From Trypanosoma brucei (lineage: Eukaryota): DNA of 64,000 nucleotides. Position 1 is the first letter of the stretch. Each line of letters opens with the position of its first letter. Positions 9,859 through 54,258 of the stretch are shown here, piece after piece. The notes beneath the pieces are model-generated. The model made no database searches. It saw only the letters and a list, made by a program, of their open reading frames with translations, and had not been told where the DNA came from. Both the position numbers and the translations under genes were made by a program. Where the stretch lies: assembly GCA_000002445.1 (NCBI GenBank), contig CM000208.1, positions 224,001 to 288,000 of the forward strand. Reading direction: 5' to 3'.

Positions 9859-10989
9859 CCTAATTGGGTATACCCGAGAGCAAACGTGTAGGCTCGTCAA
9901 ACATTAGCGACGGTTCTGTCACCGAGCTAACCGTCGATACACCACCTGTACACCACGTATATGCTTGCGTGTCCTATTACAACAAATAACTTAAATGCCA
10001 AAAAAAAAAAAAGTATTTAAGGTGCCACACACTCTGCGATTGTACCTTCTCCAGCAGTGTGCCGAGCCTACCTTTAGCACTGTACCTTCTTGATTTGTTG
10101 TTACTTTTGACTACTGTGTTGATGAATAAGCTGAGGCACGCTCAAAGTGTAAAATAATAGTTTCATCTGAAGGGTCACCTTTTTACTGTACATTCTTTCT
10201 TTCCTTTTTTTTAAAAAAAGAAGGGGTTCACAACGTTCAGCGCACACCTGTTCATAACGCCCACGAATGAATAACTTCCCCGAATGGGAATAGTAAAAGA
10301 GAGAAGAAGATATGGCATGACACTACGGAAAACAGCACCACGTTTTTTTTTTGCTTTTCGCTTTGTATTGCTTTCGTGTGTAACTTATGGGTCATTTGTC
10401 TACACCTTTGTTTACCTCTCAACTGTATAAATATAACATAAATATGCGATTGCCTGTATTTATTTGTTCATGTACACTTCACGGAAGAGTTCTTTGTGCT
10501 TTGTAGCTAACTGAGAAGCTCATCCTTTCTCTTGTACCTTAAACTTACTCCCTATAAATGTTGGTCAATTTCTGCCGTTTTGTACTGTGATGGCTGCTTG
10601 CACGTGGATTTTTTTTTTGTGTTTCCACTTTGTGTACGTGACCGGCGTTACGAAAGCATTGTGTATCCTTGCTGTTGGGCGGTATTTTGCCTCTCACTTT
10701 GTACCAATGAAGGGCTATCCACTTGCCTGTAAAAGTTTTTTCTTGTTCTTATTACGGTGAGTCAACATGTCTGTACCTTGACAACTCTGTCCCCTTCGCT
10801 GCGATCTAGCTCCTTTTTTTTTAATTTTGTGACATTATTAAGTGCAATACATTTAGACTGTGATACGACAAACATAAACGCATCACTGTAGTCACAAGTA
10901 ACCGTTACGGCGCACGTCTTTGAGTAATTGATCCGCACGACAGAAGGCGGCACATACCGACAGGAATCACCAACATCTCAACATTGCAA

Positions 10990-37661: not shown

Positions 37662-40600
37662 ATGCCACGTGGAGGAGTCCGTTCTGATTCACACGTGGCG
37701 GCAGAAAAACCGCCGCGTTTACCTAATGCCGACTATTTCATTGACTCCATCAACCCTGATGATCCATCATCTATAGTTGCAGCTATGCGCTTCCTCATTG
37801 AAATGTCTGCCAACCTTTCGGATCACGGAAACCAAGCAGAAAGCATTAAATGTGCAGAGTCTGTTCTCTTACTGAGACGCGCACATGAGAATGCAGTAGC
37901 ACCACTCATTGGACCGCTCGTTGAAGAGGGGTTGTTACCTCTTTGCAGTGTAGATCACGCCGCAGACATTGTTCTCCGGTGCAACAGCAATGCTGTGAGC
38001 GCCTTTAACCAACGGTGCTTCGACATGGCTGAACTGTTTCTAGGTAAGGCGCTCTTCTTAACTGATAGTCGCACTACCGAGGAGCTGAATTACTTCCCTT
38101 CTGCGGAAGCACGCCGCCTGCGCCTACGTGCCGCCACACTGAACAACCTTGGTTGTATGGAAAAACGCCGTGGAAGATTGGAGGAATCGCTCCGGTATTT
38201 GCGGCAGGCCGTGGATATGGAAGTGGCACTCGACAGGACAACTGGTGGATCACCGTCAACATACCTCAACATGTGCACCGTACTCAACGAACTCCAACGG
38301 CATGACGAGGCGGTTATTGCGGTTGAAAACGCCCTTTCTGCTATGAACGAGCAGATGCTTCGGCAGCAACACAAGCAGCAACTACCAACATGTGCTATGA
38401 TGCTCGTGGTGGGGTTATATAACCTGGGAGTTTCGCTTGAGCTACGTAACCGCAGCGGTGATGTCGAGAGGGCAAAGAATGTATATCAGCAGGCATTGGA
38501 GGCCAGCCGCAAGTATTTTGTTGATCCGGCATGCCCAACAGTAGAAATGGCAATGATGGCAATCCAGCGAATGCACGCAGACCCGGTGTTCAGGGAGGAG
38601 CGACTTGAGAAGGAAAAGAAGGAGCGTGGTAAGACGGCAAAGGGACCACTACCACCTATATCAAAAGCAGCATCCGCGGATCATTTTTCGTCGGCAACAG
38701 AACCGCCGCCGCAACAACAACAAGCTGCACAAGAAACCGCTACGTCAGTTATGTCTGTTATACCAAGCACTCCAACACGCATCTCGTCGGCGTCGAAGGC
38801 GTCGATATTAACCCCGCCCCTTTCTTCGGCCACTCGACCGCAGATGCCCAGAAATATGCTACCGGACCACGAATCGACCAACCGGAAGGGGCCCCCTGAG
38901 CGGTCTGTTGCGCCCGATATGCAGAGGGAGCCCCAAGGAGGGAGTGAAGAAGAGTCCCCGGGACCGCAGGATCCACAATGGTCATCAACGCCAGGTGGAA
39001 GACCGTCGTTTCCACGGACTCAGGCGTCAGCCTGTTCTCCACCATCGCCACAATTCACGCTTTATCGACCGGAAACACGTCTGGAGGCATCTGTTCAAGA
39101 GGAACAACCACCACCTGTAATCGAGATTGAGCCGGAGTCCACCCAACTGTCAGCGCCCGTACCATTACAACTGCTGCCCCAACAGCGGCAAAGCGAGGAA
39201 GCGTGCTTAAACCCTCTTGAGGATGCAAAAGCAGCCCCATGCAGTGAGTCTAGTTCTGCCAAGTCTGCAGCTGCGTTGGTGGCGAAGCCAGGGGTGCCGG
39301 GTCTTATGAAAGTGAACACGCAGGTAACTGAGTGGCGATCCGGGGTAGTCCGCGGTCAGTCGCCGAAGTCTTTGTCCGACGAATTGCGTGCGCAAACGGT
39401 ACCGGAAGTCACGAAGAAGGCCCCCAGCATGGGTTGGTCGGGCTCTTCCCTATTTAGTCGCTTGGAGAGCATGTCGGTTAAGAGCGGTCCCTCTTCGCAG
39501 GATCCTTTCGTGTGCTCAACAACAGCTAAACAAGCTGCCTCAGGACCACTGGGGGCCACAAAGCGGTCGGGCATTAGGCCACTGGTGCTTTCCCCTATTA
39601 GGTCCCAGTCGCTAAAATCGGGAAGCACAGCCAGTGCCGGGGTGTCGGACGGGCAACATCGCATTGCTCTCTCCTCTGTGTTCGAGTCAAAGGATGCGAG
39701 GAAGCTAAGTAAAGGATCTAGTTCCTCTCGGTTAGATACGATGAGTCTCTTTGGTCGACGTCGCTTTGCAAGCATCACATCGCTTGCACCTAAAGACAGT
39801 TCGGAAACGGCTTCGACGAGCCGGCCTATCCTTTCCGCGCAACAGGCTGCCTCAGTGGAAAAGCATCTCATGCGCGCCCAGCTTGGACAGAAAAAGGCAG
39901 AGGAACTACGGGGAAGCCTTTCCGCAGCAGGTCGCAGCGCTGCACTTGCCAGGGCGAAGGAACGAGAGCAAAAGCGTCTAGCCAAAGAGGAGGCCAAAAA
40001 CGACGTCGCATTAGCAGGGGTGCTGTATGAGAAATTTGTTGAGGGAATGCGCACTGATGAACTTAGGCGCTGTCACCGAGCCGCTGTAGCCATTCAGCGT
40101 ATATGGCGTGGTAGCCTCGCGCGCACACTGCTGACAAGGATGGTTATTGCCTCCAAGAAGATTCAAAAAACTTTCCGCATTTACCTCGTGAAGTTACAGG
40201 CCATTAGGCTGGCGGAAAAGGTGATGGAAGAGCGGCGGCAATCCGCACGGTTGAAGAAGGAAATGGAAAATGCCATAATAATTCAGAACCGTGTGCGACA
40301 GTTCCTACGACGACTGGAAATACGGAGGTGCTACCTGGCGCGGAAGATGCGTCACCGAAATGCAGCGTGCCGCATTCAGCGTGGTTTCCGTGCCTTCCTC
40401 AGGTGGCGTGAGGAGCACCTCGCGGCTCTCATTGAGGCTCAGCGAGCTGAGGAAGAGCGAATCTATGAAATGGAGGTACGCGCTGCGCGGCGTATTCAGG
40501 TGGCTTATAGGTGCTACCTGAAGCGAAAAATGGAGTTCCTCTTCGAACAGGAGCAAGAGCGCCGCAAACATGCCGCAGAGGTCATTCAAGCTCGGATGCG

Positions 40601-42932
40601 CGGTGTACTGGCGCGCGCTTGGTTCCGCTACTACAAGGCTTATCACTACGAGCAGGAACTCAAATCGGCAACTAATCAGAAGCGAATCGTGGTGATGCAA
40701 ACAGCTACGAGAGCCCTCCTTTCTTCACGCCTTCGCAGACGGATGGAAATGGACTTACTTTACCAACTCCAACAACAAATCCTGAACAAGTCTGCAACCA
40801 AGATACAGTGCCAGTGGCGCAACCGCTTAGCGCGAATCAAGTTAGATCGATTACGTGCAGAAAAGGCGGTGTTGGAGCGTCGGGTAACGCGTGTTAAGCG
40901 GTGGTACCAGACACGTGTTCTGCGTCGAAGTTTCCTGCAAGTAAGAGAGAACAGGCGCCAAAACGACGCAGCCACCTGCATCGCGCAGTGGTACCGGATG
41001 TGTAAAGTGAGAGAGAAAGAAAGAGAAACTGCACGATACCATGCAATTAAGGCACGTGAGGCTCGTTTGGCGCGTCTTCAGGCAGACTCTGTTGTGCTGC
41101 TACAGGCCAGTTGGCGGGCCCATAACAGTTTCGTCTACGTCAGAAGTGTGCGGAGTTCATTCTTGCGCCTTACGCTCTGCGCGGAGTTCTTTCAGCGTAT
41201 TGCCAGGGGGTTTCAAGGACGAATGGAACTCTTCGCGTATAAGTGTTTTCTCATCCGTCAGGCACAGGAGCGCGTTGAGGCCCAGCGTCGAGCAAGGGCC
41301 GCTTGCGTTGTTCAGCGTGCCTGGAGGTGCGCATTTGCAAAGGATAGGGTGGTGCATATGCGAAGATGTCACGTCGCAGCAACCATGATCTCAAAACACT
41401 ATCGTGCTCGCTTATGTAGAATGGAGCTGCAACGGCTACGGGAGGCCAAGAGGTTCGAAGAGGAGACGGCAGCAGCCATGCGGATACAGAAGGCCGCACG
41501 CCACTTCTTACGCCGTCTGGATTTGCTTCGTCATGAGAATCGTAAAAGGAAGCGGAAGGAGAGGATGTTTATCCTCATGCGCCGCGACGAGGCCGCGACG
41601 ACGCTCCAGGCAATCTGGCGCGGACGAGTAACACGGCGAGTACTTGAAGAGGAAAGGAGAGAATTAGCGGCATTAGAGGTACATATCCGGAAGGTGCAGC
41701 GCGCGTGGCGAACGCATAAATTCCGCTGCGGAATAAATGCGACGGTATTGAAGCATACTGACCTCCGGAAGAGGCGCTCCACAGCGGCGCTCAAGATTCA
41801 ATGCTTCTGGAGGAAAATGGTTGCTGCAGAAAAGGTGGCCGTCCTCCGTCAGTTGCATAGGCGCCGTGTAAAGAATGCAAGAATTATCCAACGGTGGTGG
41901 CGGTGCATGCTGGCGAAAATGGAGTTGGAGGCGCGTAGGTTGAAACGACAAGAGGAAGTAGCGTATCAACTCTATTATATGGAAAGATGGGATGAGGCCG
42001 TTAGTCTCATTAACGCCTTCTTGCAGACAATGCTCTCGCAGCAGCATAGGCTGGTGGTGAAGAGGAAGAGACTACTTGAGCAACTGACGGATAAGGAACG
42101 GGAACGGTACCTCCGCAGACACGCGGCCATTATAAAAATTCAAAGGTTCTACCGCGGACACTACGAGCGTATGTATGCACGTGGGGTTAGGCGAAAGAAG
42201 ATGGAAGAGGAGCAACGCAAACGCGAACAGGAAGCCTTGGAACAGCGAAGCGCTTTGGCTATACAGTGCGCTTATAGGGTGTTTAGGGCGTGTTGTGAAG
42301 TCACAGCACGTCGTAGGGCAAAGAGAGAGAAACAGTTGGCCGAGGAGCTGGAACACTACACGACAATGGATCCACAGGATGTCGTGCGCAACCTGTTCTG
42401 GATGCACGAGTCACATATGAAACGCGACCACATCAGGGGGCGTCTCAATGTCAAGGCGCGAAGCGACAAGGCTGCGGTCGTGATTCAGAGGGTGGTTCGA
42501 CGCTGGCTTGCAGAACTCCGTATGGCTCGCAGAAGGGAGAAGAGCAAAGCACTGAGGGCTGTTGCGATCATTAAAAGCTACTGGAAGAAATACCTTGAGT
42601 GCAAGCGCGCTAATCTGTTAGAAATACAGAGGCGTGCGGCTACGATCATTCAGGCACAGTTTCGGGGCTACATTCACCGATGCGAGTGGGAAGAACGGCG
42701 ACAAGCATCTGAGAAAGAGAAAAGACAACAGGTATTGGGAGAGAATAAGTTCGACGCTACGGCCACCGTTTTGCAGTCCTTCTGGCGTCGCATCACGGCG
42801 CAACGCTTGGTGAACCGGATGCGAGAGGAGCGCATGGAAGAAAAGAACTTCCATGTTACCAATGAGGCGGCCCGTACCATTCAGCAGGTGTATCGGTGTT
42901 ATAGAGAACGCCGCATGAATCAAAATCAATGA
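37662..42932 (+). CDS. Very large IQ-motif-rich protein (1756 aa) with N-terminal TPR-like helices and ~20 IQ calmodulin-binding motifs in the C-terminal half
   Basis: ATG at 37662. The IQ consensus [IVL]QxxxRGxxxR recurs: 'IQRIWRGSLAR', 'IQNRVRQFLRR', 'IQRGFRAFLRW', 'IQVAYRCYLKR', 'IQARMRGVLAR', 'IQCQWRNRLAR', 'VQRAWRCAFAK', 'IQKAARHFLRR', 'LQAIWRGRVTR', 'VQRAWRTHKFR', 'IQCFWRKMVAA', 'IQRWWRCMLAK', 'IQRFYRGHYER', 'IQCAYRVFRAC', 'IQRVVRRWLAE', 'IQAQFRGYIHR', 'LQSFWRRITAQ', 'IQQVYRCYRER'. Confidence 0.7.
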   Translation: MPRGGVRSDSHVAAEKPPRLPNADYFIDSINPDDPSSIVAAMRFLIEMSANLSDHGNQAESIKCAESVLLLRRAHENAVAPLIGPLVEEGLLPLCSVDHAADIVLRCNSNAVSAFNQRCFDMAELFLGKALFLTDSRTTEELNYFPSAEARRLRLRAATLNNLGCMEKRRGRLEESLRYLRQAVDMEVALDRTTGGSPSTYLNMCTVLNELQRHDEAVIAVENALSAMNEQMLRQQHKQQLPTCAMMLVVGLYNLGVSLELRNRSGDVERAKNVYQQALEASRKYFVDPACPTVEMAMMAIQRMHADPVFREERLEKEKKERGKTAKGPLPPISKAASADHFSSATEPPPQQQQAAQETATSVMSVIPSTPTRISSASKASILTPPLSSATRPQMPRNMLPDHESTNRKGPPERSVAPDMQREPQGGSEEESPGPQDPQWSSTPGGRPSFPRTQASACSPPSPQFTLYRPETRLEASVQEEQPPPVIEIEPESTQLSAPVPLQLLPQQRQSEEACLNPLEDAKAAPCSESSSAKSAAALVAKPGVPGLMKVNTQVTEWRSGVVRGQSPKSLSDELRAQTVPEVTKKAPSMGWSGSSLFSRLESMSVKSGPSSQDPFVCSTTAKQAASGPLGATKRSGIRPLVLSPIRSQSLKSGSTASAGVSDGQHRIALSSVFESKDARKLSKGSSSSRLDTMSLFGRRRFASITSLAPKDSSETASTSRPILSAQQAASVEKHLMRAQLGQKKAEELRGSLSAAGRSAALARAKEREQKRLAKEEAKNDVALAGVLYEKFVEGMRTDELRRCHRAAVAIQRIWRGSLARTLLTRMVIASKKIQKTFRIYLVKLQAIRLAEKVMEERRQSARLKKEMENAIIIQNRVRQFLRRLEIRRCYLARKMRHRNAACRIQRGFRAFLRWREEHLAALIEAQRAEEERIYEMEVRAARRIQVAYRCYLKRKMEFLFEQEQERRKHAAEVIQARMRGVLARAWFRYYKAYHYEQELKSATNQKRIVVMQTATRALLSSRLRRRMEMDLLYQLQQQILNKSATKIQCQWRNRLARIKLDRLRAEKAVLERRVTRVKRWYQTRVLRRSFLQVRENRRQNDAATCIAQWYRMCKVREKERETARYHAIKAREARLARLQADSVVLLQASWRAHNSFVYVRSVRSSFLRLTLCAEFFQRIARGFQGRMELFAYKCFLIRQAQERVEAQRRARAACVVQRAWRCAFAKDRVVHMRRCHVAATMISKHYRARLCRMELQRLREAKRFEEETAAAMRIQKAARHFLRRLDLLRHENRKRKRKERMFILMRRDEAATTLQAIWRGRVTRRVLEEERRELAALEVHIRKVQRAWRTHKFRCGINATVLKHTDLRKRRSTAALKIQCFWRKMVAAEKVAVLRQLHRRRVKNARIIQRWWRCMLAKMELEARRLKRQEEVAYQLYYMERWDEAVSLINAFLQTMLSQQHRLVVKRKRLLEQLTDKERERYLRRHAAIIKIQRFYRGHYERMYARGVRRKKMEEEQRKREQEALEQRSALAIQCAYRVFRACCEVTARRRAKREKQLAEELEHYTTMDPQDVVRNLFWMHESHMKRDHIRGRLNVKARSDKAAVVIQRVVRRWLAELRMARRREKSKALRAVAIIKSYWKKYLECKRANLLEIQRRAATIIQAQFRGYIHRCEWEERRQASEKEKRQQVLGENKFDATATVLQSFWRRITAQRLVNRMREERMEEKNFHVTNEAARTIQQVYRCYRERRMNQNQ

Positions 42933-43400
42933 TGTAAACACAGCAGTTAGTTATTATACTAGATGTTTTATTGCAAAATTCACCCTCCCTTCTCTCCCCA
43001 CGATCCGTACATACACTTTCGTCTTTACTTCTTTCCCCTCCATTTGATGTTGCTCCTCTATCTTTGTGAGAGCGGTGGGATGAGGTTGCTTACGTTGTAA
43101 TGCAGTTTTTCTCAACCCCATGTCTGTATGACAGCAGTGCAACGAAGATATGTAAGAGGTATTTTAGAGGACAGAAACACAAACAGCAGCAGCAACGGAG
43201 GGGCTCTAGTGACCACTTGGATGCCTTTCTTCTTTTTTTCTATGTGTGGTGGTCTACCCACCGAAGGGTAGAAGGGAATGTGTATTCCCCTCTCCTCTCT
43301 CTTTTGCCATTGTCCTTATACACATTGTTGTCCCGTGTATTCTCCCCGCATTTCTTTCATCATACATGTAACATGCCATGTCGCGAGCAAGGGTTGGGGT

Positions 43401-45221
43401 ATGGCCGCCGTGGAGCCATACAGACGCTTTGTGTCGATAGAGCTTCCCTTTTGCCTTCCTGTAACGGTGGAAACCAACACCGACGGTACCCATTCCTCAT
43501 GTGCCACGGCCACGGCGGATCGCCACACGGTAGAGGCATTTGTTCCCCCGTCATTCCTTCGACCTTGTATCGACGACATCATACCGACGGCACGGGAGAA
43601 GGCGGAACGTCAGGAAGGAGGTAACGACACCGCGGGAAAGGGTGAACCGAAGGAAATGTTGGGTATTGCAACAACGACGGAATATTGCACGGGGGAAATA
43701 TTCTCAGGGTGGCGGTCGCTGGATTTTGACGCGGATCTGGAGAGTCGTTTGGAGGGAACTGCCGACGGAAACCGTAGCAAGCTGACGACTACGGCAAATG
43801 AAGAAGGGGAGGCAGAAAGAGAACGAATAAGGCGCGAGTCCTTTCCCTCCATTACCCCCCAGCTCTTGCTTCAGGGATTCTTTCGTAATGATCTCCTGGT
43901 GGAGGTGAAACGCACGCGACGGGTTAAACGATTGCGTAATGTGGAGACGGGACGTGTGGTAAAAGAAACTTACGTTGATGGTGGCACTGATCACAAGCAA
44001 ACGGGGGTAACTGTATTAGGTGTTGTGTCACGCGAAGTAGACATTGTTAAACCGGCGGATTTCTGTTTTTCCCCTTTCACGAGCGAAAATATTGAATCAT
44101 TTCCAGAACTGTGCAGTGGGAACATTTTTCCACCAGGTCACTTTATAGGCGAGAAGAGTCCGTTCGAGGTCGCTTTAGTGTATGATTCACACTCGGGGAA
44201 GAGGGACATGGACCGCCTGGATAACACTGCAACATCATTTAACTGCGATGAGGCACCACTGTGGGAGTTTGAGGGCGTTCCCACGCTGACGATGGCAGCA
44301 GGCGACCCAAACATTCCACCGCCACCGAGTCAAGCGCAGATGGATATCCTCCGCCGCCTGAACGAAGGTTTTGATGAGCAAGGCTGCATAGAGGTGCGAG
44401 CCGTGAAGGCGCTCTTGGAAGAGCGTCCGGTATGGGTGACGAAGGACCTCATAGACGCCATTTTCGAAACGGGTGTATGCCCTCGCACACACATAAATAA
44501 AAAGGCTGTGGCGTGCTTGACGTATATCATTAAAAATGGGCCGTTTAATAGGATGCGCATCCGTATGGGGTTCAACCCATATGCCAACCCCAGCTCAGCA
44601 TGCCTGCAAAGAATCGCTGTGAAGATCTGCCGTCGCTCTGAGTTAGGTACATGCCTGCGTGACATTAGTCGCGTTCCCTACATCAATGAGGTGCTGCAAG
44701 AAATACTTGACAGTAAATCCCACAAGCGAGGCTCAGAGGAGGATAGCGGTGCTTTCAAACGGCCAAGTTCGCTGCCATACCGCCCACGGGGAACACTTTT
44801 CGAGAGGCTCGCAAGGGCTATTGGGCTAGGACAACTTTATGTCGCCCTTCAGTTAATTGATGTGAGTGATGACGCCTTTCTACAAGAACTACTTTCAACC
44901 GTCTCCGCAGATGCAGAAATTCCCCTTGAAGACCGTACGTGGCGATGTGGTTGGATAGGTAGTGGGTGTTACCAGCGAGCTATCAATCACATAATTAGTA
45001 CCTTTACAACATTTATTCGAGAAGAGGTAGAACCAGTGCTGCAGAGGAGACGAAGCGGCCAAGAAAACGACCAAGTTGGGGAAAGTGCAGGTGAGCGGTC
45101 TCCGTATGCCTCCTCCACCTCCAGTGTGTCACCAGAGAGTTATGGTGATGATGATAATGAGGACTCACTCGAGAGTGTTAGTCCTGTAGACGATTTGTCC
45201 CAGCATCCAGATGACGGATGA
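43401..45221 (+). CDS. Hypothetical protein (~606 aa) with an acidic C-terminus
   Basis: The track ORF starts at the ATG at 43278, but that lies inside a C/T-rich tract typical of a 5' flank. I prefer the ATG at 43401 ('MAAVEPYRRF'). No confident domain assignment. Confidence 0.5.
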   Translation: MAAVEPYRRFVSIELPFCLPVTVETNTDGTHSSCATATADRHTVEAFVPPSFLRPCIDDIIPTAREKAERQEGGNDTAGKGEPKEMLGIATTTEYCTGEIFSGWRSLDFDADLESRLEGTADGNRSKLTTTANEEGEAERERIRRESFPSITPQLLLQGFFRNDLLVEVKRTRRVKRLRNVETGRVVKETYVDGGTDHKQTGVTVLGVVSREVDIVKPADFCFSPFTSENIESFPELCSGNIFPPGHFIGEKSPFEVALVYDSHSGKRDMDRLDNTATSFNCDEAPLWEFEGVPTLTMAAGDPNIPPPPSQAQMDILRRLNEGFDEQGCIEVRAVKALLEERPVWVTKDLIDAIFETGVCPRTHINKKAVACLTYIIKNGPFNRMRIRMGFNPYANPSSACLQRIAVKICRRSELGTCLRDISRVPYINEVLQEILDSKSHKRGSEEDSGAFKRPSSLPYRPRGTLFERLARAIGLGQLYVALQLIDVSDDAFLQELLSTVSADAEIPLEDRTWRCGWIGSGCYQRAINHIISTFTTFIREEVEPVLQRRRSGQENDQVGESAGERSPYASSTSSVSPESYGDDDNEDSLESVSPVDDLSQHPDDG

Positions 45222-47124: not shown

Positions 47125-48365
47125 AAGAAACTTATAGGACTGTTGAAATTCACACGAACACGTCATATGATACGAACTCTACAGTCAAGCGATTTGAATT
47201 GTGCCGCACCTCTCCCGGTGCGTGCCCTCAATATTTCTATTCGTATTCACCTAGCCTTCGTTAAGGGTGAATACGGTAACGTATAATTTTTGCTTTATAA
47301 AGGGAAAATGAAGGGAACTTATTAGTGTGAATAAAGCGGGTGACGGAGGGCTCCCTCAGTGTTTATCCGATTACGATGTGAATGTTATTTGTCTTCCTCA
47401 AGTGAAGTTTGGTGTCGTGATGCAGTTGGAACATGCCATTGGTTGCGCGACATGATGTTTTGCTGCTGTTTCTTTTAAAAGGAAAAAAAACAAAGTATTG
47501 ACAACAACAATAATAATAATAATAGAGTGAATAGATACGCGATGGAAAGGAGGATGGGGGCGGTTGCTGTCATCCCACGCCTAAACACTATGCGCTGTTC
47601 GTCACCTGCATGGTTAACAACCCCGTGACTTATCTCATAACATCCCATTCCGACACAGCATTCGTTCCCGTAAGCGAAGTTTTTTTTCCCCCTTCAATGT
47701 GCTTTTGCGAGGCGATTATCCTTAAGGAAGATCCACGTATGTGTTTATGTATTTTCGTATTCATGAATTTGTGTACTTATATATTCGCACAAGTAAAATG
47801 AAGGAACAACTGTTTTTGTCTCATATTGTTTTCTTTTTTGTTTTGTTTTCAATGGGAGGACGGTTCTCTTCATTGGGGGAAACCCCGTTTGAAATTTTAA
47901 CGGGGAAGCGGTTTAGGGCCAATAAAACCGTCTAATGTTGATGAACTTTCCACACATCAAGAAATTTCGTACCACAATCAGCACCTACCTCTGTTTCTTG
48001 CGTTGCGGTTTGTAAAGTTGCTGGTGACGCAGTAAAGTGGAAATAAATAAATAAACATAAATAAAATTCTGCAGCGCGGAGGGGGAACATATGATTTATT
48101 ATGAAAATGTGTGTTCTCGAATATGAATCTCCCTTTTTATCCTTGTGTGTTTTTGCTATTTTTTCTTTTATTAAGTACCCAACACAGTTGATAGGCTGTT
48201 CGTACCGCTGCGTCCGAAGTAAAAAATTTTTTATTTTTTATTTTTCCTTTGAACAGTAATAACGATAGCAGCAGCTATAGCACCGACCATCACCACTAAT
48301 AATAATATTATTGTTGTTGTTATTGTTGCCGCCCCTTCAAATATTATCGGCATTACGTGTGAATA

Positions 48366-48848
48366 ATGAAAGCCCGTTCCTCCCGCCCAGTGACAACAAT
48401 AACGGTGACATCAGAAGAAACCATTCAAACGCACAATGCACGTGATACCCCACGGACATTTGAGTACAAAACCAAAAGGAATGAACTCATGCGAAGGTTG
48501 GAGGAAATGCGAAATGCGTTGGAAGAAGATAATAATAATAATAATAAAGGATCACGTGTGAAACTTTGTTATTATGATATTACATTTAATTGCAGGGATC
48601 CCGTCGATGTTACTGTTATGAGTGGCTTTCAGAGATTTGAGGGACTCGGGGACACATTAAGCGGACACATGAAATGCGAAGAAGATGACAGGCACAAATT
48701 TGTGGGGTTAATTAAAGAAATTATTCAATTGGATGTGAGTCACCGCGCGAGGAATATGGACAAAAGTGAAATTGCGGTAGTGAGGATTGCAGCAAACTTC
48801 AAGGAACTTAACAGCACCTTCACGAGAAGCGCGGCAACACTCCTTTGA
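48366..48848 (+). CDS. Small hypothetical protein (160 aa); last candidate gene of the plus-strand unit
   Basis: ATG at 48366. It contains an (AAT)n-encoded poly-Asn run. No recognisable domain. Confidence 0.4.
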   Translation: MKARSSRPVTTITVTSEETIQTHNARDTPRTFEYKTKRNELMRRLEEMRNALEEDNNNNNKGSRVKLCYYDITFNCRDPVDVTVMSGFQRFEGLGDTLSGHMKCEEDDRHKFVGLIKEIIQLDVSHRARNMDKSEIAVVRIAANFKELNSTFTRSAATLL

Positions 48849-51800
48849 GTACAGCTGTTGTTTGCCTGCTTGTTTATTTTGTTGTTGTTGTTTTCTTTTT
48901 TCATTTTCCACCTTCAACATTACCAACTCCAATCCTCCACCCGTGTCGTTGCCGCAACCCCTTCAGCATTCAAAATAAAAAAAAAGAAACATATATAAGC
49001 GTGCGTGTGTGTCTGAGTAATTGGATATTGTATTTTTGACATCCGTTCTATTCAAAAAAGGAACCTGACAAAACAAGCGCATACCGTTTTCCTGCATAAT
49101 TTTTTTTTCTATTTATGTACTCATACATGCGCTTACTAACACTAAGCGAGATGAAAGATATCATATCATGTGATGCGGTGCAAGTTTTGGCATTTTTTTT
49201 TTAATTTTTTACTTGCACTTCAATAACAGGACGATAAACGGAAGTGAGGTACGTCAAGACAAGCCAAGTGTGTCGAAGAAATTTATCAGCAGAAGTCGTT
49301 TCGGCATGCATTTACGCATATTTTTATGTTTATGCATATAATATAAAAGCATATTCATATACTCATTGGTTTATTATGAGCGTGGTGTAATGGTGAATGT
49401 CATTCAAACATTTACACTATACACTTCTTTTACGTTTCATTGGTGCACTAACATTAAAAGTGGGAGTGCCCAGATGAAAGATATTTGGCTGAATATTTAT
49501 ACCGCCACGTAGCGCATAAATAAACAGACATATATTTTTATAAATACAAATTTATCGACGCAATGCAACCGGAGCACCACGGTGGCCCCTACGAGTTATA
49601 TGCCCACTTCTCCTCAAAGAAAAAATATTTTATCTTTTTTTTCATTTTATTTTCCTTTTTACACCTGTGCTGGGAAACTAAACGTATGTCCCGTAGTTTT
49701 TTTTTTATGTACGTGTAGGGGAGGACGGTGGGGAAATGGTCGACGTTGGACGCTTCGAATGGGAGCTCAACCATAACACTATTTTTAGCGTGTGCTTTTT
49801 TTTCTTTTTTAGTTCCTTCTACTGTTCGCGGTGCAAAACAAAAGAACAAATCGCGTACCGTCATATCGCTCGTTTTTTTATTATTATTTACTATTTCCCC
49901 CCCCCCCTCCCTTTGTGGCGTTTCGTTGTCCCCAATTGCTTTTTCTTTCCTTTCCTTCATGTTTGTCCATTTACTGACTGTCAGGATCGAAGAACAATTG
50001 AATAATGGTAATAACAAAGGGCAACTGCACACTTCGCCGTCTAATATGAGGAACGGGATTTTTGAATTGTGATGCCTTCAAGTTCCCTCAAGTCCCAAAA
50101 AATATATATATAGTGTTTCTTTTTGTCCCCTTTACTTCAGCGGTCATGCAAAATCAGCTCCTTCATTTGTTACGGTGCTGAAATTTACTTGAAGTTGTCG
50201 TATTTTAGGGAACCCATGCATGAACACTAACAACAATATTAGTGAAACAATTGCTTAACATATGTGTCTCTGCTGTGATTTCCTTCTTGTGAATTACCTA
50301 ACGGTGTTCAAAAAGTCATTTCGTTGATGCAATTTGTTTCCCCTCCCTTGTTTTGTGGTGACGTACTTTTGACACCGCTGTTGTTTTGCTGGGTCTGATG
50401 GAAGGTTCGGGGACGCAGAAACGGAAAAAGCGAAGGGGAGACATACACTTCTTTTATAATAATAATAATGAGGCTGACTTCCCTATCCTTTTGGCCTCCA
50501 TTAAATTCCTTTTCTTTCCGCCTTGAGCTGCTAGAGCTTTTCCCCAAACTGTATAAACTGCAGAGGGCCACTTAGAAGCCGTGCCGTAGCGAGAGGTTCC
50601 GAATTGACAAAAAGAAGAGCGCGTCAGTCCTCCCTCACAGGTTAACCGCTTTCTAAATAGTTGGAAATTACACAAATATCAACACAGTCCCGCTCACTTA
50701 TTCGCAAGCCGACTTTCGCGTCACAACATTGCGGCCCTCATAAGAAAGCCCTCGCTGTCATCCATTGGAAACCCGTCTCGGTTGACTTCAATAATGTATG
50801 AAACAGGAAGAGTAGCCACCGGGGGAAAGAGGCAGAGAGAGGAACGCCGACGCGTTCCGCTATTCTGGGTGTCAGTTCCATCATGCGTTATCATGGTCTC
50901 GCTTCGGTGCGACTTCTTGAACATTCCAGTAGGGGGCTGTGACAGCGACTTGGCTTTACGGGATTGTTGTTCTGCAGCGCTTCTGGGTTCATTTATTCCT
51001 TCAGCTTTCGCACTTGGGGCCATTCGAGGAAATCGGCGAAGGGTTTCTGGCACCTCAGTCTCATTTAAGTGTGGTTTTCTCCCCCCCCCCCCCAATTTCC
51101 TTGCCGAGTGCCCATCGCAGGTGCCCTGTCAACCCAGCATTCCCGAGAAGGTACTTGGGAAACACCGAATAAGTGCGGCTCCCCGCCCCTCTTTTCTTTC
51201 GTTGCTTCGGTGTGGCCCCAGTGTTTTCTGTCGCCCAAAACCACATTCACCATGTCTGCCCACGTTACTGCGAAAGCAGGGCCCTTAAGAGGCAGCCCTC
51301 AATGCATAGGATGCCGTTCAACTCTTTTCCCAACCTCTCCATTGATGCGATGACGCGTGGTGCGGTGCCTTGTACGAATCCCTGTCACCTCGGCGGCGAT
51401 CCCGCGCTCCCCGACGGCAAGTTTCTTCGCCAAAAAAGCGCCGTTCTCCCAGGGAGGAAAATACCCAAACATTCTTTCACGAGCGGATGTACCCTAAACC
51501 GATCCCCACTTACAGGCGAAAAGCCCGTTGTTTACCATTCCCCCCTTTGTTCTCTCCCTCTCTTTGCCCCATTTACTCCACGCACTCCCCACACGTTTCA
51601 AAAACTTCGCGATCCCCGTGCACGACGTCCAATTTCTCTTTCCCTCCTCATTTCCTCTAACCCTCACAATCTTCAACCTCACCAGCTCCACCATATCCTT
51701 AAACCCCCTCGCCTTCTCTGTTGCGTCTTTGGCTTTTGCTTGAACGAAGGCATACACCAATTTCAATCTCCCTGATATATTACAAAGCCCCCACAGGGCC

Positions 51801-54258
51801 CACTTATCTTGAGTTCACCATTATCCGCAGACGTAAATCTACGAAAGGCAAACAGGACGCAACCAAAGTAATGACTTCTTTTGCGGGCATTCTATGTGTA
51901 GTTTCGGAGGTGAAGGGGAAAGCACACCGAAGTGAAAACTTAGCACCGCAGAAGCACTCCCCGACTAGGCTTAAATACGTTAACATGAGAATATAAGATA
52001 ACATAAGTGAAGCAACGAAAAGAACATAAAAGACTAATATACCAGAAAACACCGCCAACCCCAGCGTAGAGCCTCATCCCGAAAAAAACGAGAGTAAAGA
52101 TCGTTATTTCTGATATCGGGGTAAAGATGGCAACTCGCACACGGAGGATCAGCTTAAAGTACATCTTCTAATTGCGCACCGCTGAAAAGACAAATAATTA
52201 CTTGCGTTAAGTGTCAACTAGATCCCCTCGACCCACAGAGGAAATATCCACCGAAACCAAAGACTACATTTCACTGTGAACAACGAAACACGGGCGGTGC
52301 CTCGGATGGCAAAAAGGTTGTCCCTTTTGAGGATGGCTCATTAAAACATGGTGGGCTTTTGGCGCCCTCAAGGGAGACATCCATAACAATTAGGGGAAGC
52401 TGACTACCAACATTCTACATTTATCAAAGCCTACAAACGACCCCCTCCAACATGGGTGCCGGCAGCTCGTCTGCGTCTATTCGTGGTGGAGCGTCCGTTG
52501 TTGAGGAATCGAAAACAGAAGGAACTCCAGAAAGCATGGTAACTCCGCTTGGGCTTTCGGATGAGGAGCAGCCCAAGGTCACATCAACCTACTTCCCCAC
52601 CCTCAAATATAAAACGGCTCTAATGGAGTCATGGAAAAGCCGGAACCGTTGCGCAGAAGAAGGATGTTAAGTTGATAACTGGTGAATGTATGGAACAGGT
52701 ATTTTCAGTTGCCAACAGAAGAGCCCTAATACGATAAAGATCAGTTAAAGGAGAGTTCCCCCCGTCTTATGTGATCTGCTTTAAACACTCTGAGATAACA
52801 ATATGGAAAGCTTTGAGGAACTCTGGAAGCAGTTGCAGTTGGATCCCTTGCGATGCAACACTTGGGAATGACAGGGAGATTTGTACGTTGAAAGCCTTAG
52901 AGGCTATCGTATTCGTGGAGGGTGGTCGTTTGACCGACATTTGGGAGGCGGAGCGCGACAGAGTACCGTGCCACACGTGAGAAAGTTGTTGAAGAGAGGA
53001 GAATATCTCAATGATACCATTGCACATTTTATTTGCCAAATTGCGGCTCAAGCAGTTACTAGGAGGAAGGGGTGCGGAGCCGCGGCGCCCGGAAGAATCA
53101 TGAGGCGCATAAACATCAAGGGGGTGGACCTCATTGTACTAATGAAGAAGGTGTCGAATGAAACAGTTGTGCGGGAATGAGGATATGGGGCTTCAAAACC
53201 ATTCATCATCAGGGGGGGGGAATGTTGGAGGCTGCTAAAGTTGGTATTCGTGCCGTATCTGTTAACCACTTGGAATCTGGTTGTTAGTGGTTACCGCCTT
53301 CCAAAGAGGCAGCCGATGCATACAAGGGCGGGCACATATGCACAGCCCTCTCGCAAAGATACACTCAACACATTCACTCACACATACTTAAACGGACCCG
53401 CAGAATGTCAAGTGCTTTACTCTTTTTGAGCAACCGACTCCGAAAACTTGCCCCTTCGGATAAAAAAAGTGAGTGTTTGTGATGAATAAATACGGAAACA
53501 CTTCCTATCATATGTGGGACACTGAGGTACACGAAACATACGGTGACGGAAAAGGGGGATTCAAAACCCTCAATCATGACACGACTTTACTAAATCCTTC
53601 TATTTCTATCTGTTTCAAGCACTTGGTCATAACTGGAACACTCAGTTCCTCCTTCTGTTGCAGCAATAAAAGAATAGACTTTTGTATACTCCTCTCAGTC
53701 AATCCCTTGTCTCTTTCAATATGCATCAAAACTGTCTCATGAAGGAGTTCCATAACCTCGTCCCGCAATTTGTCAGCGCGTTGAATAAACACGCTTGCAA
53801 TTATATCTTGTAGTTCTCGCAGTTCCGGAAGCCACGGCGTGGTGGAGTGGGCACAACCACAAATAACTAAAAAACTAAGACCCCCTCTAGTGAGATTCAA
53901 CAAAGACAAAAGGTAAAACACGCAAAAAGTCAGTAGTCTACACGGAAAAAAGGAATATTTCAAAACATCCACCAACAAATTACCGCCCCCTCCCTCCCCC
54001 CCCAAAAAAAAGGGGGATCGCAAAAAGAAACTACATTCAAGGACACCAAAAGCACTCGCCGTTGCAAAACATTACTATAGTCACCAGCATGCGCCAGCTG
54101 GGATCCACTACTTTTCCGATTGAAAAAAAAATACTACGAGATCAAAAATAGAAAGCATACTAATCACTGAAGGGAACGACCCTGTCTTATACCACAGGTA
54201 CAGAAGGAAATATATACTCGTCTTCAATGCAATACACATAAATTCGAACAGACTCCGG
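48849..54258. other. Convergent strand-switch region (probable RNA pol II termination zone) between the plus- and minus-strand units. About 5.4 kb with no convincing CDS.
   Basis: Coding strand polarity flips from + (genes to 48848) to - (CBP1 stop at 54259). Only short, compositionally odd ORFs lie in between. There are AT-rich blocks (49050-49560) and homopolymer runs: C12 at 51083-51094, C11 at ~49896, G9 at ~53212, C-rich at 53984-54003. No tRNA cloverleaf was found by eye. Confidence 0.6.
52452..52670 (+). CDS. Speculative 72-aa ORF with an N-myristoylation consensus (MGAGSS...)
   Basis: ATG in a 'ccaacATGG' context. The translation is 'MGAGSSSASIRGGASVVEESKTEGTPESMVTPLGLSDEEQPKVTSTYFPTLKYKTALMESWKSRNRCAEEGC' (Gly2, Ser6). 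It is an isolated short ORF inside the strand-switch region, so it could be chance. Confidence 0.2.
   Translation: MGAGSSSASIRGGASVVEESKTEGTPESMVTPLGLSDEEQPKVTSTYFPTLKYKTALMESWKSRNRCAEEGC

What the first reader, a model, noticed from the sequence alone, without database searches (positions are those of the whole stretch)
37662..42932. Protein with ~20 tandemly spaced IQ motifs, a candidate multi-calmodulin/light-chain scaffold
The C-terminal ~950 aa consist almost entirely of IQ-type motifs ([ILV]QxxxRGxxxR/K variants), spaced 20-30 aa apart. That greatly exceeds a myosin neck (1-6 IQs). The N-terminal half has TPR-like helices and a Ser/Pro/Thr-rich low-complexity middle. There is no motor domain, so this is not a myosin. 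It could recruit many calmodulin or centrin-like EF-hand proteins, which would be plausible for the trypanosome flagellum or cytoskeleton, but no function is evident from sequence alone.
Basis: seen in the sequence. Interest (0 to 1): 0.5.

Follow-up and report, generated by a model that had tools for sequence, protein, structure and literature searches.

The report
Trypanosome flagellar-rod protein with 26 IQ motifs
This is the already-described Trypanosoma brucei gene Tb927.10.970, a paraflagellar-rod protein whose tail carries about 26 calmodulin-type docking motifs; what appears to be new is that the spacing of those motifs has stayed almost exactly fixed across very distant relatives, as if the tail were a rod of set length.

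Summary
The ORF at 37662-42932 (+) encodes a 1756-aa protein with three parts: an N-terminal TPR solenoid, a ~470-aa Ser/Ala/Pro-rich linker that is probably disordered, and a 951-aa, ~93% helical, very basic tail full of IQ motifs. T. brucei has 22 core motifs. The family alignment shows 26 positions, 6 of them complete IQxxxRGxxxR. Pfam sees 9-12 individually. Spacing is 23-41 aa (median 34) plus two long gaps, not 20-30.

It is not new. Published RNAi and qPCR primers map inside the ORF, so it is Tb927.10.970. Marques et al. [quoted passage not shown] They cite TrypTag for a paraflagellar-rod location and show that knockdown in bloodstream forms causes lethal endoreduplication, the usual outcome of flagellar defects.

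Calmodulin binding is still untested. My added finding is that all 25 inter-motif distances are essentially invariant in 28 orthologues out to a diplonemid (0 indels at 28% identity), while the TPR domain and linker vary greatly in length.

Best reading: a fixed-geometry calmodulin (or EF-hand light-chain) scaffold or strut in the paraflagellar rod. It resembles ASPM and myosin necks only through its IQ motifs.

The parts
37662..42932 (+). Complete ORF of Tb927.10.970 (1756 aa, 203.6 kDa, pI 10.5), stop codon included
   Evidence: ORF listing. Identical to XP_822355.1/Q38CE3. The published primers 970RiF, 970RiR, 970qRT_F and 970qRT_R map at 38132-38150, 38626-38645, 41547-41566 and 41708-41727.
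37719..38591 (+). N-terminal TPR-like alpha-solenoid (aa ~20-310), probably a protein-protein docking module
   Evidence: AlphaFold2 pLDDT 86.4, pTM 0.81, 15 helices. Foldseek against the PDB: KLC1/KLC2 and LGN TPR domains, TM ~0.46, E ~1e-4. Pfam TPR_2/12/10/1/8 above cutoff when scanned alone.
38130..38219 (+). The one sequence-canonical TPR repeat (aa 157-186), containing the family signature RLRLRAATLNNLGCMEKRRG
   Evidence: Pfam best stretch. Invariant columns R152-R170 in alignments A1 and A2.
38637..40046 (+). Ser/Ala/Pro-rich middle linker (aa 326-795), hypervariable and probably disordered
   Evidence: Composition S 16%, A 11%, P 10%. No Pfam match. The aligned linker region is 120-626 aa across orthologues, with a median of 21 indel events.
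39741..39782 (+). Conserved island in the linker, MSLFGRRRFASITS (aa 694-707; family consensus NPFGRRxFGS), containing the published cell-cycle-regulated phosphosite T706
   Evidence: G698 and R699 are invariant and F702 nearly so. Residue 706 is T. The phosphosite is reported in PMC9464253.
40077..42929 (+). IQ array (aa 806-1756): 26 IQ-type positions, ~93% predicted helix in 7 long helices, net charge +140, pI 11.3. Length and register are invariant across 28 orthologues.
40092..40124 (+). Complete IQ motif 1 (aa 811-821, IQRIWRGSLAR)
   Evidence: I, Q, R, G and R are invariant in 14/14 sequences. G is kept in 28/28.
40584..40616 (+). Complete IQ motif 2 (aa 975-985, IQARMRGVLAR)
   Evidence: Q, R, G and R are invariant in 14/14 sequences. 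G is kept in 28/28.
41190..41222 (+). Complete IQ motif 3 (aa 1177-1187, FQRIARGFQGR; F/W at the first position)
   Evidence: Q, R, G and R are invariant in 14/14 sequences. G is kept in 24/28.
41604..41636 (+). Complete IQ motif 4 (aa 1315-1325, LQAIWRGRVTR)
   Evidence: Q in 14/14, G in 13/14. G is kept in 27/28.
42138..42170 (+). Complete IQ motif 5 (aa 1493-1503, IQRFYRGHYER)
   Evidence: Q, R, G and R are invariant in 14/14 sequences. G is kept in 27/28.
42648..42680 (+). Complete IQ motif 6 (aa 1663-1673, IQAQFRGYIHR); best Pfam IQ stretch at aa 1657-1675
   Evidence: G is kept in 25/28.
42369..42401 (+). Conserved non-IQ insert DPQDVVRNLFW (aa 1570-1580), inside the 74-aa gap and at a predicted helix break
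   Evidence: P1571, V1575, R1576, L1578, F1579 and W1580 are invariant. The insert is present out to the diplonemid sequence. AlphaFold2 breaks the helix at aa 1568-1580.

Best explanation
The ORF is Tb927.10.970, a structural and regulatory scaffold of the trypanosome paraflagellar rod (PFR).

Proposed mechanism, with shown and inferred steps marked:
1. Shown by prediction: the N-terminal TPR solenoid is of the peptide/cargo-binding type. Inferred: it anchors the protein to a PFR or assembly partner.
2. Sequence variability is shown; disorder is inferred from composition. The linker is hypervariable and carries a small conserved RRxF(G/A)S island around the published phosphosite T706. Inferred: a flexible, phospho-regulated tether.
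3. Shown: the 951-aa tail is almost entirely long alpha-helix, extremely basic (+140), and carries 26 IQ-type sites at fixed positions. Six are complete IQxxxRGxxxR motifs.
4. Inferred: these sites are occupied by the acidic EF-hand protein calmodulin (and/or calmodulin-like light chains), which neutralise and stiffen the helix as in a myosin lever arm.
5. Inferred from the near-absence of indels over ~947 residues at down to 24-28% identity: the loaded rod has a defined length and register and is built into the PFR as a strut or ruler-like element. It would position calmodulin and could make PFR mechanics or signalling Ca2+-sensitive.
6. The phenotype is published; its cause is inferred. Loss compromises flagellar function, which in bloodstream forms blocks cytokinesis and gives multinucleate 8C/16C cells.
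For: Identity:
- Four published primers map in the ORF.
- The protein is identical to XP_822355.1.

IQ nature:
- Pfam IQ 103 bits, with no competing family.
- The core motif is strongly enriched over shuffles.
- A profile of the protein's own repeat units hits only IQ proteins in the PDB. These include chains solved with calmodulin (fusion constructs with NaV, neurogranin and neuromodulin IQs), myosin Va/Ic necks and axonemal IQ proteins RSP23, FAP305, SPATA17, DRC9/10 and CFAP91.
- The within-unit conservation profile reproduces the IQ consensus, with Q at 0.95 and R at +5 at 0.89.
- Q is invariant in 14/14 sequences at 21 of 26 sites.

Geometry:
- 19 of 25 inter-motif distances are identical in 28/28 orthologues; the other six are identical in 24-27.
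- The array is 941-952 aa everywhere, with a median of 0 indel events. The TPR domain has a median of 4 and the linker 21 in the same proteins.

Structure and charge:
- AlphaFold2 predicts ~93% helix in 7 helices of 61-199 residues with no confident compact fold, pTM 0.22.
- Net charge is +112 to +182 in all orthologues.

Location and partner availability:
- TrypTag places it in the PFR.
- It is in the DRC1-APEX2 proximity proteome.
- Calmodulin is found throughout the PFR and in the PFR-axoneme links, and its RNAi abolishes PFR assembly.

Phenotype class:
- In the same screen, knockdowns of flagellar and PFR proteins are enriched in the >4C pool.
Against: - No binding experiment exists for calmodulin or any other partner.
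- Only 9-12 of the 26 units are Pfam-significant. Four T. brucei units lack the Q, and one site (aa 1243) lacks Q in all 14 trypanosomatid sequences and in 20 of the 28 orthologues. Full occupancy is therefore uncertain.
- The protein was not among the PFR2-dependent proteins in the 2009 PFR proteome, and no PFR sub-domain was assigned to it in the files I could search.
- The tertiary arrangement of the seven helices is unknown (pTM 0.22), so 'extended rod' is not demonstrated.
- The irregular spacing matches no known lattice period.
- Reciprocal BLAST found no orthologue in Euglena, which has a PFR, or in Strigomonas.
Confidence: 0.6

Rival explanations
1. The IQ sites are mainly occupied by EF-hand proteins other than canonical calmodulin. 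Candidates are the PFR EF-hand proteins PFC1, PFC6, PFC7 and Tb5.20, centrins, or calmodulin-like light chains. The six complete motifs might bind calmodulin while the ~20 incomplete ones bind specialised light chains, as happens in some myosins.
For: - Only 6 of 26 sites keep the full IQxxxRGxxxR consensus.
- Only 9 of 26 units are Pfam-significant on their own.
- The PFR contains several EF-hand proteins besides calmodulin.
- From established knowledge (not tested here): incomplete IQ motifs in myosins often bind essential or regulatory light chains rather than calmodulin.
Against: - Calmodulin is abundant throughout the PFR and is required for its assembly.
- Nothing in the sequence favours a specific alternative partner.
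Confidence: 0.2
2. The tail is a purely structural helical filament of the PFR lattice. The IQ-like residues would serve helix-helix or lattice contacts, or electrostatic binding to other acidic partners, with little or no EF-hand protein bound.
For: - The length and register invariance is what a lattice element would show.
- PFR 'wires' are interpreted as helical bundles.
- The linkers also carry some conserved residues.
Against: - A conserved net charge of +112 to +182 and pI 11.3 make self-association unlikely.
- The conserved positions are exactly those of the IQ consensus (A-4, A-3, I0, Q+1, aromatic +4, R+5, basic +10), not a heptad pattern.
- The unit profile finds only IQ proteins in the PDB and no coiled-coil proteins.
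- AlphaFold2 gives no confident helix packing.
Confidence: 0.12
3. The protein is primarily a dedicated cell-cycle or cytokinesis regulator, the framing under which it was validated. It would be controlled by G2/M phosphorylation at T706, with PFR localisation being secondary.
For: - Knockdown gives 8C/16C multinucleate cells and severe growth loss.
- T706 phosphorylation peaks in late G2/M.
- T706 lies in the only conserved island of the linker.
Against: - The same paper states that flagellar, dynein, IFT, radial-spoke and PFR knockdowns generally fall in the >4C pool, because flagellar beat is needed for bloodstream-form cytokinesis.
- Localisation and proximity proteomics place the protein in the flagellum.
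- The protein has no catalytic or known cell-cycle domain.
- New-flagellum and PFR assembly is itself cell-cycle timed, which can explain the G2/M phosphorylation (inference).
Confidence: 0.06
4. It is the trypanosome orthologue of ASPM/Asp, a calmodulin-binding spindle-pole and microtubule minus-end protein. Reciprocal-BLAST tables in two papers suggest this.
For: - The best human BLAST match listed is ASPM, E = 4e-12.
- 'Homo sapiens: yes' in the reciprocal-best-BLAST table.
- Both proteins have long IQ arrays, and knockdown of this one gives a division defect.
Against: - No ASH, calponin-homology or other ASPM domain is found at E<=10.
- ASPM has no N-terminal TPR solenoid (established knowledge).
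- The ASPM IQ number varies 2/24/61/74 between species; here it is fixed.
- The reported localisation is the PFR, not the spindle.
- The similarity can be explained by the IQ repeats alone.
Confidence: 0.02

Closest known systems
Tb927.10.970 as described by Marques et al. 2022 (Nat Commun 13:5326, PMC9464253), and as listed in the TrypTag-based PFR proteome (bioRxiv 10.1101/2024.04.19.590284) and the DRC1-APEX2 proteome (PMC8141408)
   Same: It is the same gene; the published primers map in the ORF. [quoted passage not shown] PFR localisation and the lethal endoreduplication phenotype are published.
   Different: I found nothing published on the motif count, on the complete versus incomplete classes, on partner binding, on the invariant register, on conservation out to diplonemids, or on the extreme positive charge.
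ASPM / Drosophila Asp (IQ-array spindle-pole proteins)
   Same: Very long arrays of IQ motifs that are presumed or known to load many calmodulins. It is the best human BLAST match.
   Different: ASPM has ASH and calponin-homology domains and a C-terminal region, and no TPR. None of those domains is present here. The ASPM IQ number changes greatly between species, whereas here number and spacing are fixed. Location also differs: spindle versus flagellar PFR.
Unconventional myosin lever arms (e.g. myosin Va, 6 IQ motifs spaced 23/25 aa)
   Same: A single long helix stiffened by calmodulin or light chains bound to tandem IQ motifs, with conserved spacing. The unit profile matches myosin Va and Ic necks.
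   Different: There is no motor domain. There are 26 sites rather than 1-6. Spacing is 23-41 aa and irregular, leaving 0-17 uncovered residues between footprints. The protein begins with a TPR domain.
Axonemal IQ proteins solved in situ (Chlamydomonas RSP23 and FAP305, SPATA17, CFAP91, IQCG/DRC9, IQCD/DRC10, Sp17) and the PFR protein PFC15
   Same: The top PDB matches to this protein's repeat profile are flagellar IQ proteins. PFC15 is a PFR protein with 2 IQ motifs linked to a proposed Ca2+/calmodulin network.
   Different: Those proteins carry 1-3 IQ motifs as local calmodulin docking points, not a ~950-aa array, and they have different architectures.
TPR domains of kinesin light chain (KLC1/2) and LGN/GPSM2
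   Same: These are the best structural matches to the N-terminal domain: TPR superhelices that bind cargo or partner peptides in their groove.
   Different: TM-score is only ~0.46 with 14-20% identity. There is no KLC heptad region. Leishmania-clade orthologues carry large insertions. Any ligand is unknown.
Helical molecular rulers (e.g. CCDC39/CCDC40, the 96-nm axonemal ruler). This is an analogy from established knowledge only.
   Same: A long helical protein whose length appears to be under strong constraint.
   Different: There is no sequence relationship. No periodic lattice binding has been demonstrated. The ruler idea here is an inference from the absence of indels.

Membership tests
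IQ calmodulin-binding motif (Pfam PF00612) | Sequence match to the family model above the curated threshold | tested here: met
   103.1 bits against a cutoff of 20.3, with 12 stretches. 9 of 26 isolated units match at E<=0.01.
IQ calmodulin-binding motif (Pfam PF00612) | Consensus [FILV]Qxxx[RK]Gxxx[RK] ('complete' motif) | tested here: met
   6 sites (aa 811, 975, 1177, 1315, 1493, 1663), conserved in 24-28 of 28 orthologues. The other ~20 sites are 'incomplete' and lack G at +6.
IQ calmodulin-binding motif (Pfam PF00612) | Physically binds calmodulin or an EF-hand light chain | not testable with these tools
   No multimer prediction or experiment was available. No binding data were found in the literature searched.
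Myosin | Myosin motor (head) domain N-terminal to the IQ neck | tested here: not met
   A Pfam scan at E<=10 returns only IQ and TPR families.
ASPM/Asp | N-terminal ASH/microtubule-binding region and calponin-homology domain(s) preceding the IQ array | tested here: not met
   No such Pfam domains at E<=10. The N-terminus is instead a TPR solenoid.
ASPM/Asp | Orthology supported outside the IQ repeats | tested here: not met
   The N-terminal profile search finds orthologues only with the TPR + IQ architecture, plus generic TPR proteins. The ASPM hit in the literature has E = 4e-12 and can be explained by the IQ repeats alone.
TPR superfamily | Pfam TPR models above threshold, and a helix-turn-helix solenoid fold | tested here: met
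   TPR_2 35.8/27, TPR_12 35.6/30.1 and TPR_10 34.2/27.5 bits/cutoff when the domain is scanned alone. AlphaFold2 pLDDT 86. Foldseek matches TPR superhelices. In the full-length scan these hits fall below the cutoffs.
Paraflagellar rod (PFR) component | Localises to the PFR | not testable with these tools
   Literature only: TrypTag PFR localisation is cited in PMC9464253; the protein is listed among 151 TrypTag PFR proteins; it is in the DRC1-APEX2 flagellar proximity proteome.
Paraflagellar rod (PFR) component | Abundance depends on PFR2 (the criterion for the PFC cohort) | not tested
   It does not appear in the chromosome-10 entries of the 2009 PFR2-RNAi table that I read. Absence from a 2009 proteome is weak evidence.
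Paraflagellar rod (PFR) component | Phyletic distribution tracks organisms that have a PFR | tested here: inconclusive
   Present in trypanosomatids, Paratrypanosoma, Bodo and a diplonemid. Absent from the aflagellate Perkinsela. Also not detected by reciprocal BLAST in Euglena gracilis or Strigomonas.
Fixed-length helical rod / molecular ruler (functional class, not a sequence family) | Length and register conserved far beyond sequence conservation | tested here: met
   The array is 941-952 aa in 28 orthologues at 24.5-56% identity, with a median of 0 indel events. 19 of 25 inter-motif distances are identical in all 28.
Fixed-length helical rod / molecular ruler (functional class, not a sequence family) | Extended conformation that spans or sets a lattice period | not testable with these tools
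   AlphaFold2 gives long helices but no reliable tertiary arrangement, pTM 0.22. The PFR period of 54 nm and wire length of 40-45 nm cannot be matched to the protein without imaging.

The most novel reading that the evidence does not exclude
The 947-residue IQ array is a calmodulin-loaded molecular ruler or strut of the paraflagellar rod. On this reading its exact length and the irregular but invariant positions of its 26 sites encode where calmodulin sits in the paracrystalline PFR lattice. Ca2+-dependent changes in light-chain binding would then tune PFR stiffness or assembly. This would explain mechanistically why calmodulin depletion abolishes PFR assembly, and it would be the first defined-geometry multi-calmodulin scaffold in an extra-axonemal flagellar structure, conserved since before kinetoplastids and diplonemids diverged.
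Probability: 0.25. Interest if true: 0.65.

Novelty: already known. Interest (0 to 1): 0.4.

Why it matters
Calmodulin is spread throughout the paraflagellar rod and is needed to build it, but how it is held there is unclear. The known candidates are PFR1/2 and the two-IQ protein PFC15. A PFR protein with up to 26 fixed-position IQ sites is the obvious candidate for the main calmodulin dock, which makes the question directly testable.

The protein is essential in bloodstream-form T. brucei. Its full-architecture orthologues were found only in kinetoplastids, a diplonemid and unnamed environmental sequences, and it has no true human orthologue, so it also has some value as a parasite-specific vulnerability.

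The finding as handed over (many IQ motifs, TPR, no motor, probably flagellar) is already in the literature. The added value here is the invariant register, the motif census and the rejection of the ASPM 'orthology'.

Tried and rejected
1. A higher-order ~140-200-aa super-repeat anchored on the six complete IQ motifs. BLAST between segments gave in-register and out-of-register matches of similar strength. Inconclusive, so not claimed.
2. A single-sequence phmmer search of the array against the PDB returned nothing at E<=0.01. I replaced it with a repeat-unit profile search, which worked.
3. A word-indexed homologue search with the N-terminal profile returned one fragment only, because the candidate limit was swamped by generic TPR proteins.
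4. Foldseek against AFDB50 was not available on the machine, so named non-euglenozoan relatives of the TPR domain could not be retrieved. The TPR + IQ proteins from other protists (P0073, P0067, P0082, P0106) stay taxonomically unassigned, and their orthology is open.
5. Literature searches by accession (Q38CE3, XP_822355, EAN77527) found nothing. The gene-ID search found one paper with the ID in its main text.
6. The AlphaFold2 model of the array is too uncertain in its tertiary structure (pTM 0.22) for a fold search, so none was run on it.
7. ASPM orthology, suggested by reciprocal-BLAST tables, was rejected on domain content and evolutionary behaviour.
8. The antisense ORF at 39356-40054 (232 aa) lies inside the gene on the non-coding strand of a + strand gene cluster, with no supporting evidence. 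I treated it as a mechanical ORF.
9. A tRNA scan of the window, including the strand-switch region, found none.
Full report
**1. What is at the coordinates**

It lies in a run of + strand genes. A PRP4-like WD40 gene sits upstream and a gene with a TFIIIC Tau95 domain sits downstream. The translation is identical to T. brucei brucei TREU927 XP_822355.1 / UniProt Q38CE3, annotated 'hypothetical protein, conserved' or 'Tetratricopeptide repeat, putative'.

**2. Checking the observation**

Pfam finds the IQ calmodulin-binding motif at 103.1 bits (cutoff 20.3), with 12 individually scoring stretches. Apart from TPR models it finds nothing else at E<=10: no myosin motor, no calponin-homology or ASH domain, no other repeat family.

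Counting by pattern within aa 790-1756, compared with composition-preserving shuffles:
- The core [ILV]Qxxx[RKWYF] occurs 20 times, against 4.3 +/- 2.0 (maximum 13).
- AxxIQxx[aromatic]R occurs 16 times, against 0.18.
- Strict IQxxxRGxxxR/K occurs 5 times, against 0.01.

An alignment of 14 trypanosomatid orthologues (33-51% identical overall) shows 26 IQ-type positions:
- The Q is invariant in all 14 sequences at 21 positions.
- It is present in at least 12 of 14 at four more.
- It is absent only at aa 1243, where the flanking I and R are kept.
- T. brucei itself has Q at 22 of the 26.
- Six positions (aa 811, 975, 1177, 1315, 1493, 1663) are complete IQxxxRGxxxR motifs, kept in 24-28 of 28 orthologues.

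Taken as isolated 22-mers, 9 of the 26 units match Pfam IQ at E<=0.01.

This is not met in spirit. Pfam sees about half of the motifs, and no alternative family appears. A profile built solely from the 26 units retrieves only recognised IQ proteins from the whole PDB. These are the flagellar proteins RSP23, FAP305, SPATA17, CFAP91, DRC9, DRC10 and Sp17; myosin Va and Ic necks; and IQ motifs of sodium channels, rdgC phosphatase, neurogranin and neuromodulin, several of them solved as fusions or complexes with calmodulin.

The intervals are 23, 40, 31, 40, 30, 37, 36, 30, 29, 40, 30, 40, 26, 32, 40, 30, 34, 30, 84, 41, 74, 29, 26, 41 and 36 residues. The median is 34 and only one interval is <=25. 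The two long gaps hold conserved non-IQ sequence: W1443, and DPQDVVRNLFW at aa 1570-1580.

**3. The other two parts**

The N-terminal ~310 residues are a true TPR-type solenoid:
- Scanned alone, they pass the curated cutoffs of five Pfam TPR models.
- AlphaFold2 with the orthologue alignment gives pLDDT 86.4 and pTM 0.81, with 15 helices in hairpins.
- Foldseek against the PDB returns TPR superhelices only. The best superpositions (TM ~0.46) are on the cargo- and peptide-binding TPR domains of kinesin light chains and LGN/GPSM2.

Residues 326-795 are Ser/Ala/Pro-rich (16/11/10%), match no Pfam family and are hypervariable in sequence and length. One small island, NPFGRRxFGS (T. brucei MSLFGRRRFASITS, aa 694-707), is conserved. 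It contains T706, the phosphosite reported to peak in late G2/M.

**4. It is a known gene**

A full-text search found Marques et al. 2022 (PMC9464253), whose Fig. 7 shows 'Tb927.10.970' with a TPR motif, phosphorylation sites and IQ motifs. The paper's two RNAi primers and two qRT-PCR primers all map inside this ORF. Three match exactly and one has a single mismatch, probably a strain SNP. The ORF is therefore Tb927.10.970.

The paper reports:
- TrypTag localisation to the paraflagellar rod (PFR) in insect-stage cells;
- in bloodstream forms, a severe growth defect with 8C/16C multinucleate cells after knockdown.

Two further sources list the gene. It is one of 151 TrypTag PFR proteins in a 2024 preprint, and it is in the DRC1-APEX2 proximity proteome of the detergent-resistant flagellar skeleton. 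I found no test of calmodulin binding and no dedicated study.

**5. The published phenotype does not require a cell-cycle function**

The same screen states that endoreduplication is the common result of cytokinesis failure. It also states that knockdowns of dyneins, IFT, radial-spoke and PFR proteins are enriched in the >4C pool, because flagellar beat is needed for cytokinesis in bloodstream forms. The Tb927.10.970 phenotype therefore belongs to the flagellar class.

**6. New here: conservation of geometry**

An exhaustive profile search with the N-terminal domain found many generic TPR proteins. It also found a tier of long proteins with the same full architecture, including the DPxxVVxxLFW insert. 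One of them is from the diplonemid Namystynia karyoxenos. All orthologues have 22-31 core IQ motifs and 5-9 complete ones.

In an alignment of 28 orthologues, 19 of the 25 inter-motif distances are identical in every sequence. The other six are identical in 24-27 of 28.

| Region (T. brucei length) | Length range in 28 orthologues | Median pairwise indel events vs T. brucei |
|---|---|---|
| IQ array (947 aa) | 941-952 aa | 0 (maximum 3) |
| TPR domain (271 aa) | 172-467 aa | 4 |
| Middle linker (485 aa) | 120-626 aa | 21 |

The array keeps this length at 24.5-56% identity. The diplonemid sequence is 28% identical to T. brucei with no indel at all.

Within the units, conservation follows the IQ consensus: A at -4 and -3, I at 0, Q at +1 (0.95), an aromatic at +4, R at +5 (0.89), and a basic residue at +10. 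The linkers between units are less conserved in sequence (0.46 against 0.60) but fixed in length.

The array has net charge +140 and pI 11.3, and is similarly basic in all orthologues, +112 to +182.

AlphaFold2 predicts the array as ~93% helix in seven helices of 61-199 residues: aa 798-996, 1003-1167, 1185-1317, 1326-1472, 1477-1567, 1581-1687 and 1695-1755. There is no confident tertiary packing (pLDDT 61.5, pTM 0.22).

**7. How it most likely works**

Shown:
- true IQ motifs under strong purifying selection;
- a long, basic, helical tail of fixed length and register;
- a TPR docking-type domain;
- a variable linker with one conserved island that holds the published phosphosite.

Published:
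- PFR location and essentiality;
- calmodulin present throughout the PFR and in the PFR-axoneme links, and required for PFR assembly.

Inferred:
- The IQ sites carry calmodulin and/or related EF-hand light chains, which neutralise and stiffen the helix as in a myosin lever.
- The minimum spacing of 23 residues lets all sites be occupied at once. This rests on established knowledge of the IQ-calmodulin footprint of about 23-25 residues.
- Selection against even single-residue indels over ~947 residues implies that the loaded rod has a defined length and angular register. It is therefore probably a built-in strut, ruler or positioning element of the PFR, not a loose calmodulin reservoir.
- If fully extended, 947 helical residues would span about 140 nm (0.15 nm per residue, from general knowledge).
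- I could not relate this length to the 54-nm PFR period or the 40-45-nm 'wires' seen by cryo-ET.

I put 0.6 on the calmodulin/EF-hand scaffold in the PFR and about 0.25 on the stronger ruler or lattice reading.

**8. Comparison with known systems**

- It works like a myosin neck or an ASPM IQ array but is a member of neither family. The motor, ASH and CH domains are absent.
- ASPM's IQ number changes from 2 to 74 between species, whereas this array is frozen.
- Two papers flag a human homologue. Where it is named, it is ASPM at E = 4e-12. I attribute this to IQ-repeat similarity.
- Its repeat units are most similar to those of axonemal IQ proteins.
- Within the PFR, the only other IQ protein noted is PFC15, with two motifs.
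- A second, distinct TPR + IQ family exists in Bodo saltans (CUG69916.1). TPR + IQ proteins also occur in other protists. Whether they are related by descent is open.

**9. Verdict**

As a discovery it is already known: the gene, its architecture, its location and its phenotype are published. The invariant register, the motif census, the conservation out to a diplonemid, the extreme charge and the rejection of ASPM orthology are, as far as I could search, new. Together they turn a descriptive annotation into a testable hypothesis about how calmodulin is built into the paraflagellar rod. Interest: 0.4.

Noticed in passing
window 39741-39782 (aa 694-707 of the target protein): This is the only conserved island in an otherwise hypervariable linker. 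The family consensus is NPFGRRxFGS; T. brucei has MSLFGRRRFASITS. It has an RxxS-type basophilic context at S704 and contains the published G2/M-regulated phosphosite T706. It could be a kinase or docking motif.
   Followed up: partly
P0072 (Bodo saltans CUG69916.1), P0129, P0140, P0157, P0136, P0142; also P0073 (MMETSP transcript), P0067, P0082, P0106: A second, distinct family has the same overall architecture: an N-terminal TPR domain with the 'RLRxxTxNNxGCxERRRG' signature, followed by a C-terminal IQ array. It occurs in Bodo saltans alongside the true orthologue (CUG89195.1). TPR + IQ proteins also occur in other, unnamed protists. Whether T. brucei has this paralogue, and whether TPR + IQ is an ancient flagellar architecture, was not resolved.
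   Followed up: partly
window 54259-55653, 55975-57369, 57984-59384 (all - strand): Three tandem, near-identical serine carboxypeptidase (Peptidase_S10) genes, each ~360 bits to PF00450.
   Followed up: partly
window ~47200-54200: A convergent strand-switch region between the + strand and - strand gene clusters, with GC falling to 0.38 at 48-50 kb. No ORF of 250 aa or more, and no tRNA genes were found.
   Followed up: partly
window 13444-22113 (+): A 2889-aa kinesin with its motor at aa 79-382 (PF00225, 308 bits). It has odd secondary Pfam hits (Ribosomal_L19e, CheY-binding, PEPCK_N) with no individually significant stretch, which suggests a long repetitive or low-complexity tail. Long antisense ORFs (15105-16961, 18630-19805) overlap it.
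   Followed up: no
window 264-4772 and 5713-9858 (+): Two adjacent large genes both carry the FAZ1 conserved domain (PF23398), and the first also has WD40 propellers. They may be flagellum-attachment-zone-related paralogues, lying in the same gene cluster as the PFR protein.
   Followed up: no
window 10984-12357 (+): A thymidine kinase with two matched TK stretches (PF00265, 371 bits), i.e. a tandem-domain TK.
   Followed up: no
window 43278-45221 (+): The gene immediately downstream of the target carries the TFIIIC Tau95 HTH domain (PF09734, 78 bits), making it a candidate RNA polymerase III factor subunit. The listed ORF overlaps another mechanical ORF (43100-43624), so the true start codon is uncertain.
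   Followed up: no
window 38626-38645 (- strand match): The published primer 970RiR differs from the window by one base (C in the primer, T in the window). This is consistent with a SNP between the laboratory strain used for RNAi and TREU927. T. brucei isolates in the protein cluster differ from the window protein at aa 206, 325, 1044, 1648 and 1707.
   Followed up: yes
window 39356-40054 (- strand): A 232-aa antisense ORF lies entirely inside the target gene's low-complexity region. There is no evidence that it is a gene, so I treated it as a mechanical ORF.
   Followed up: no
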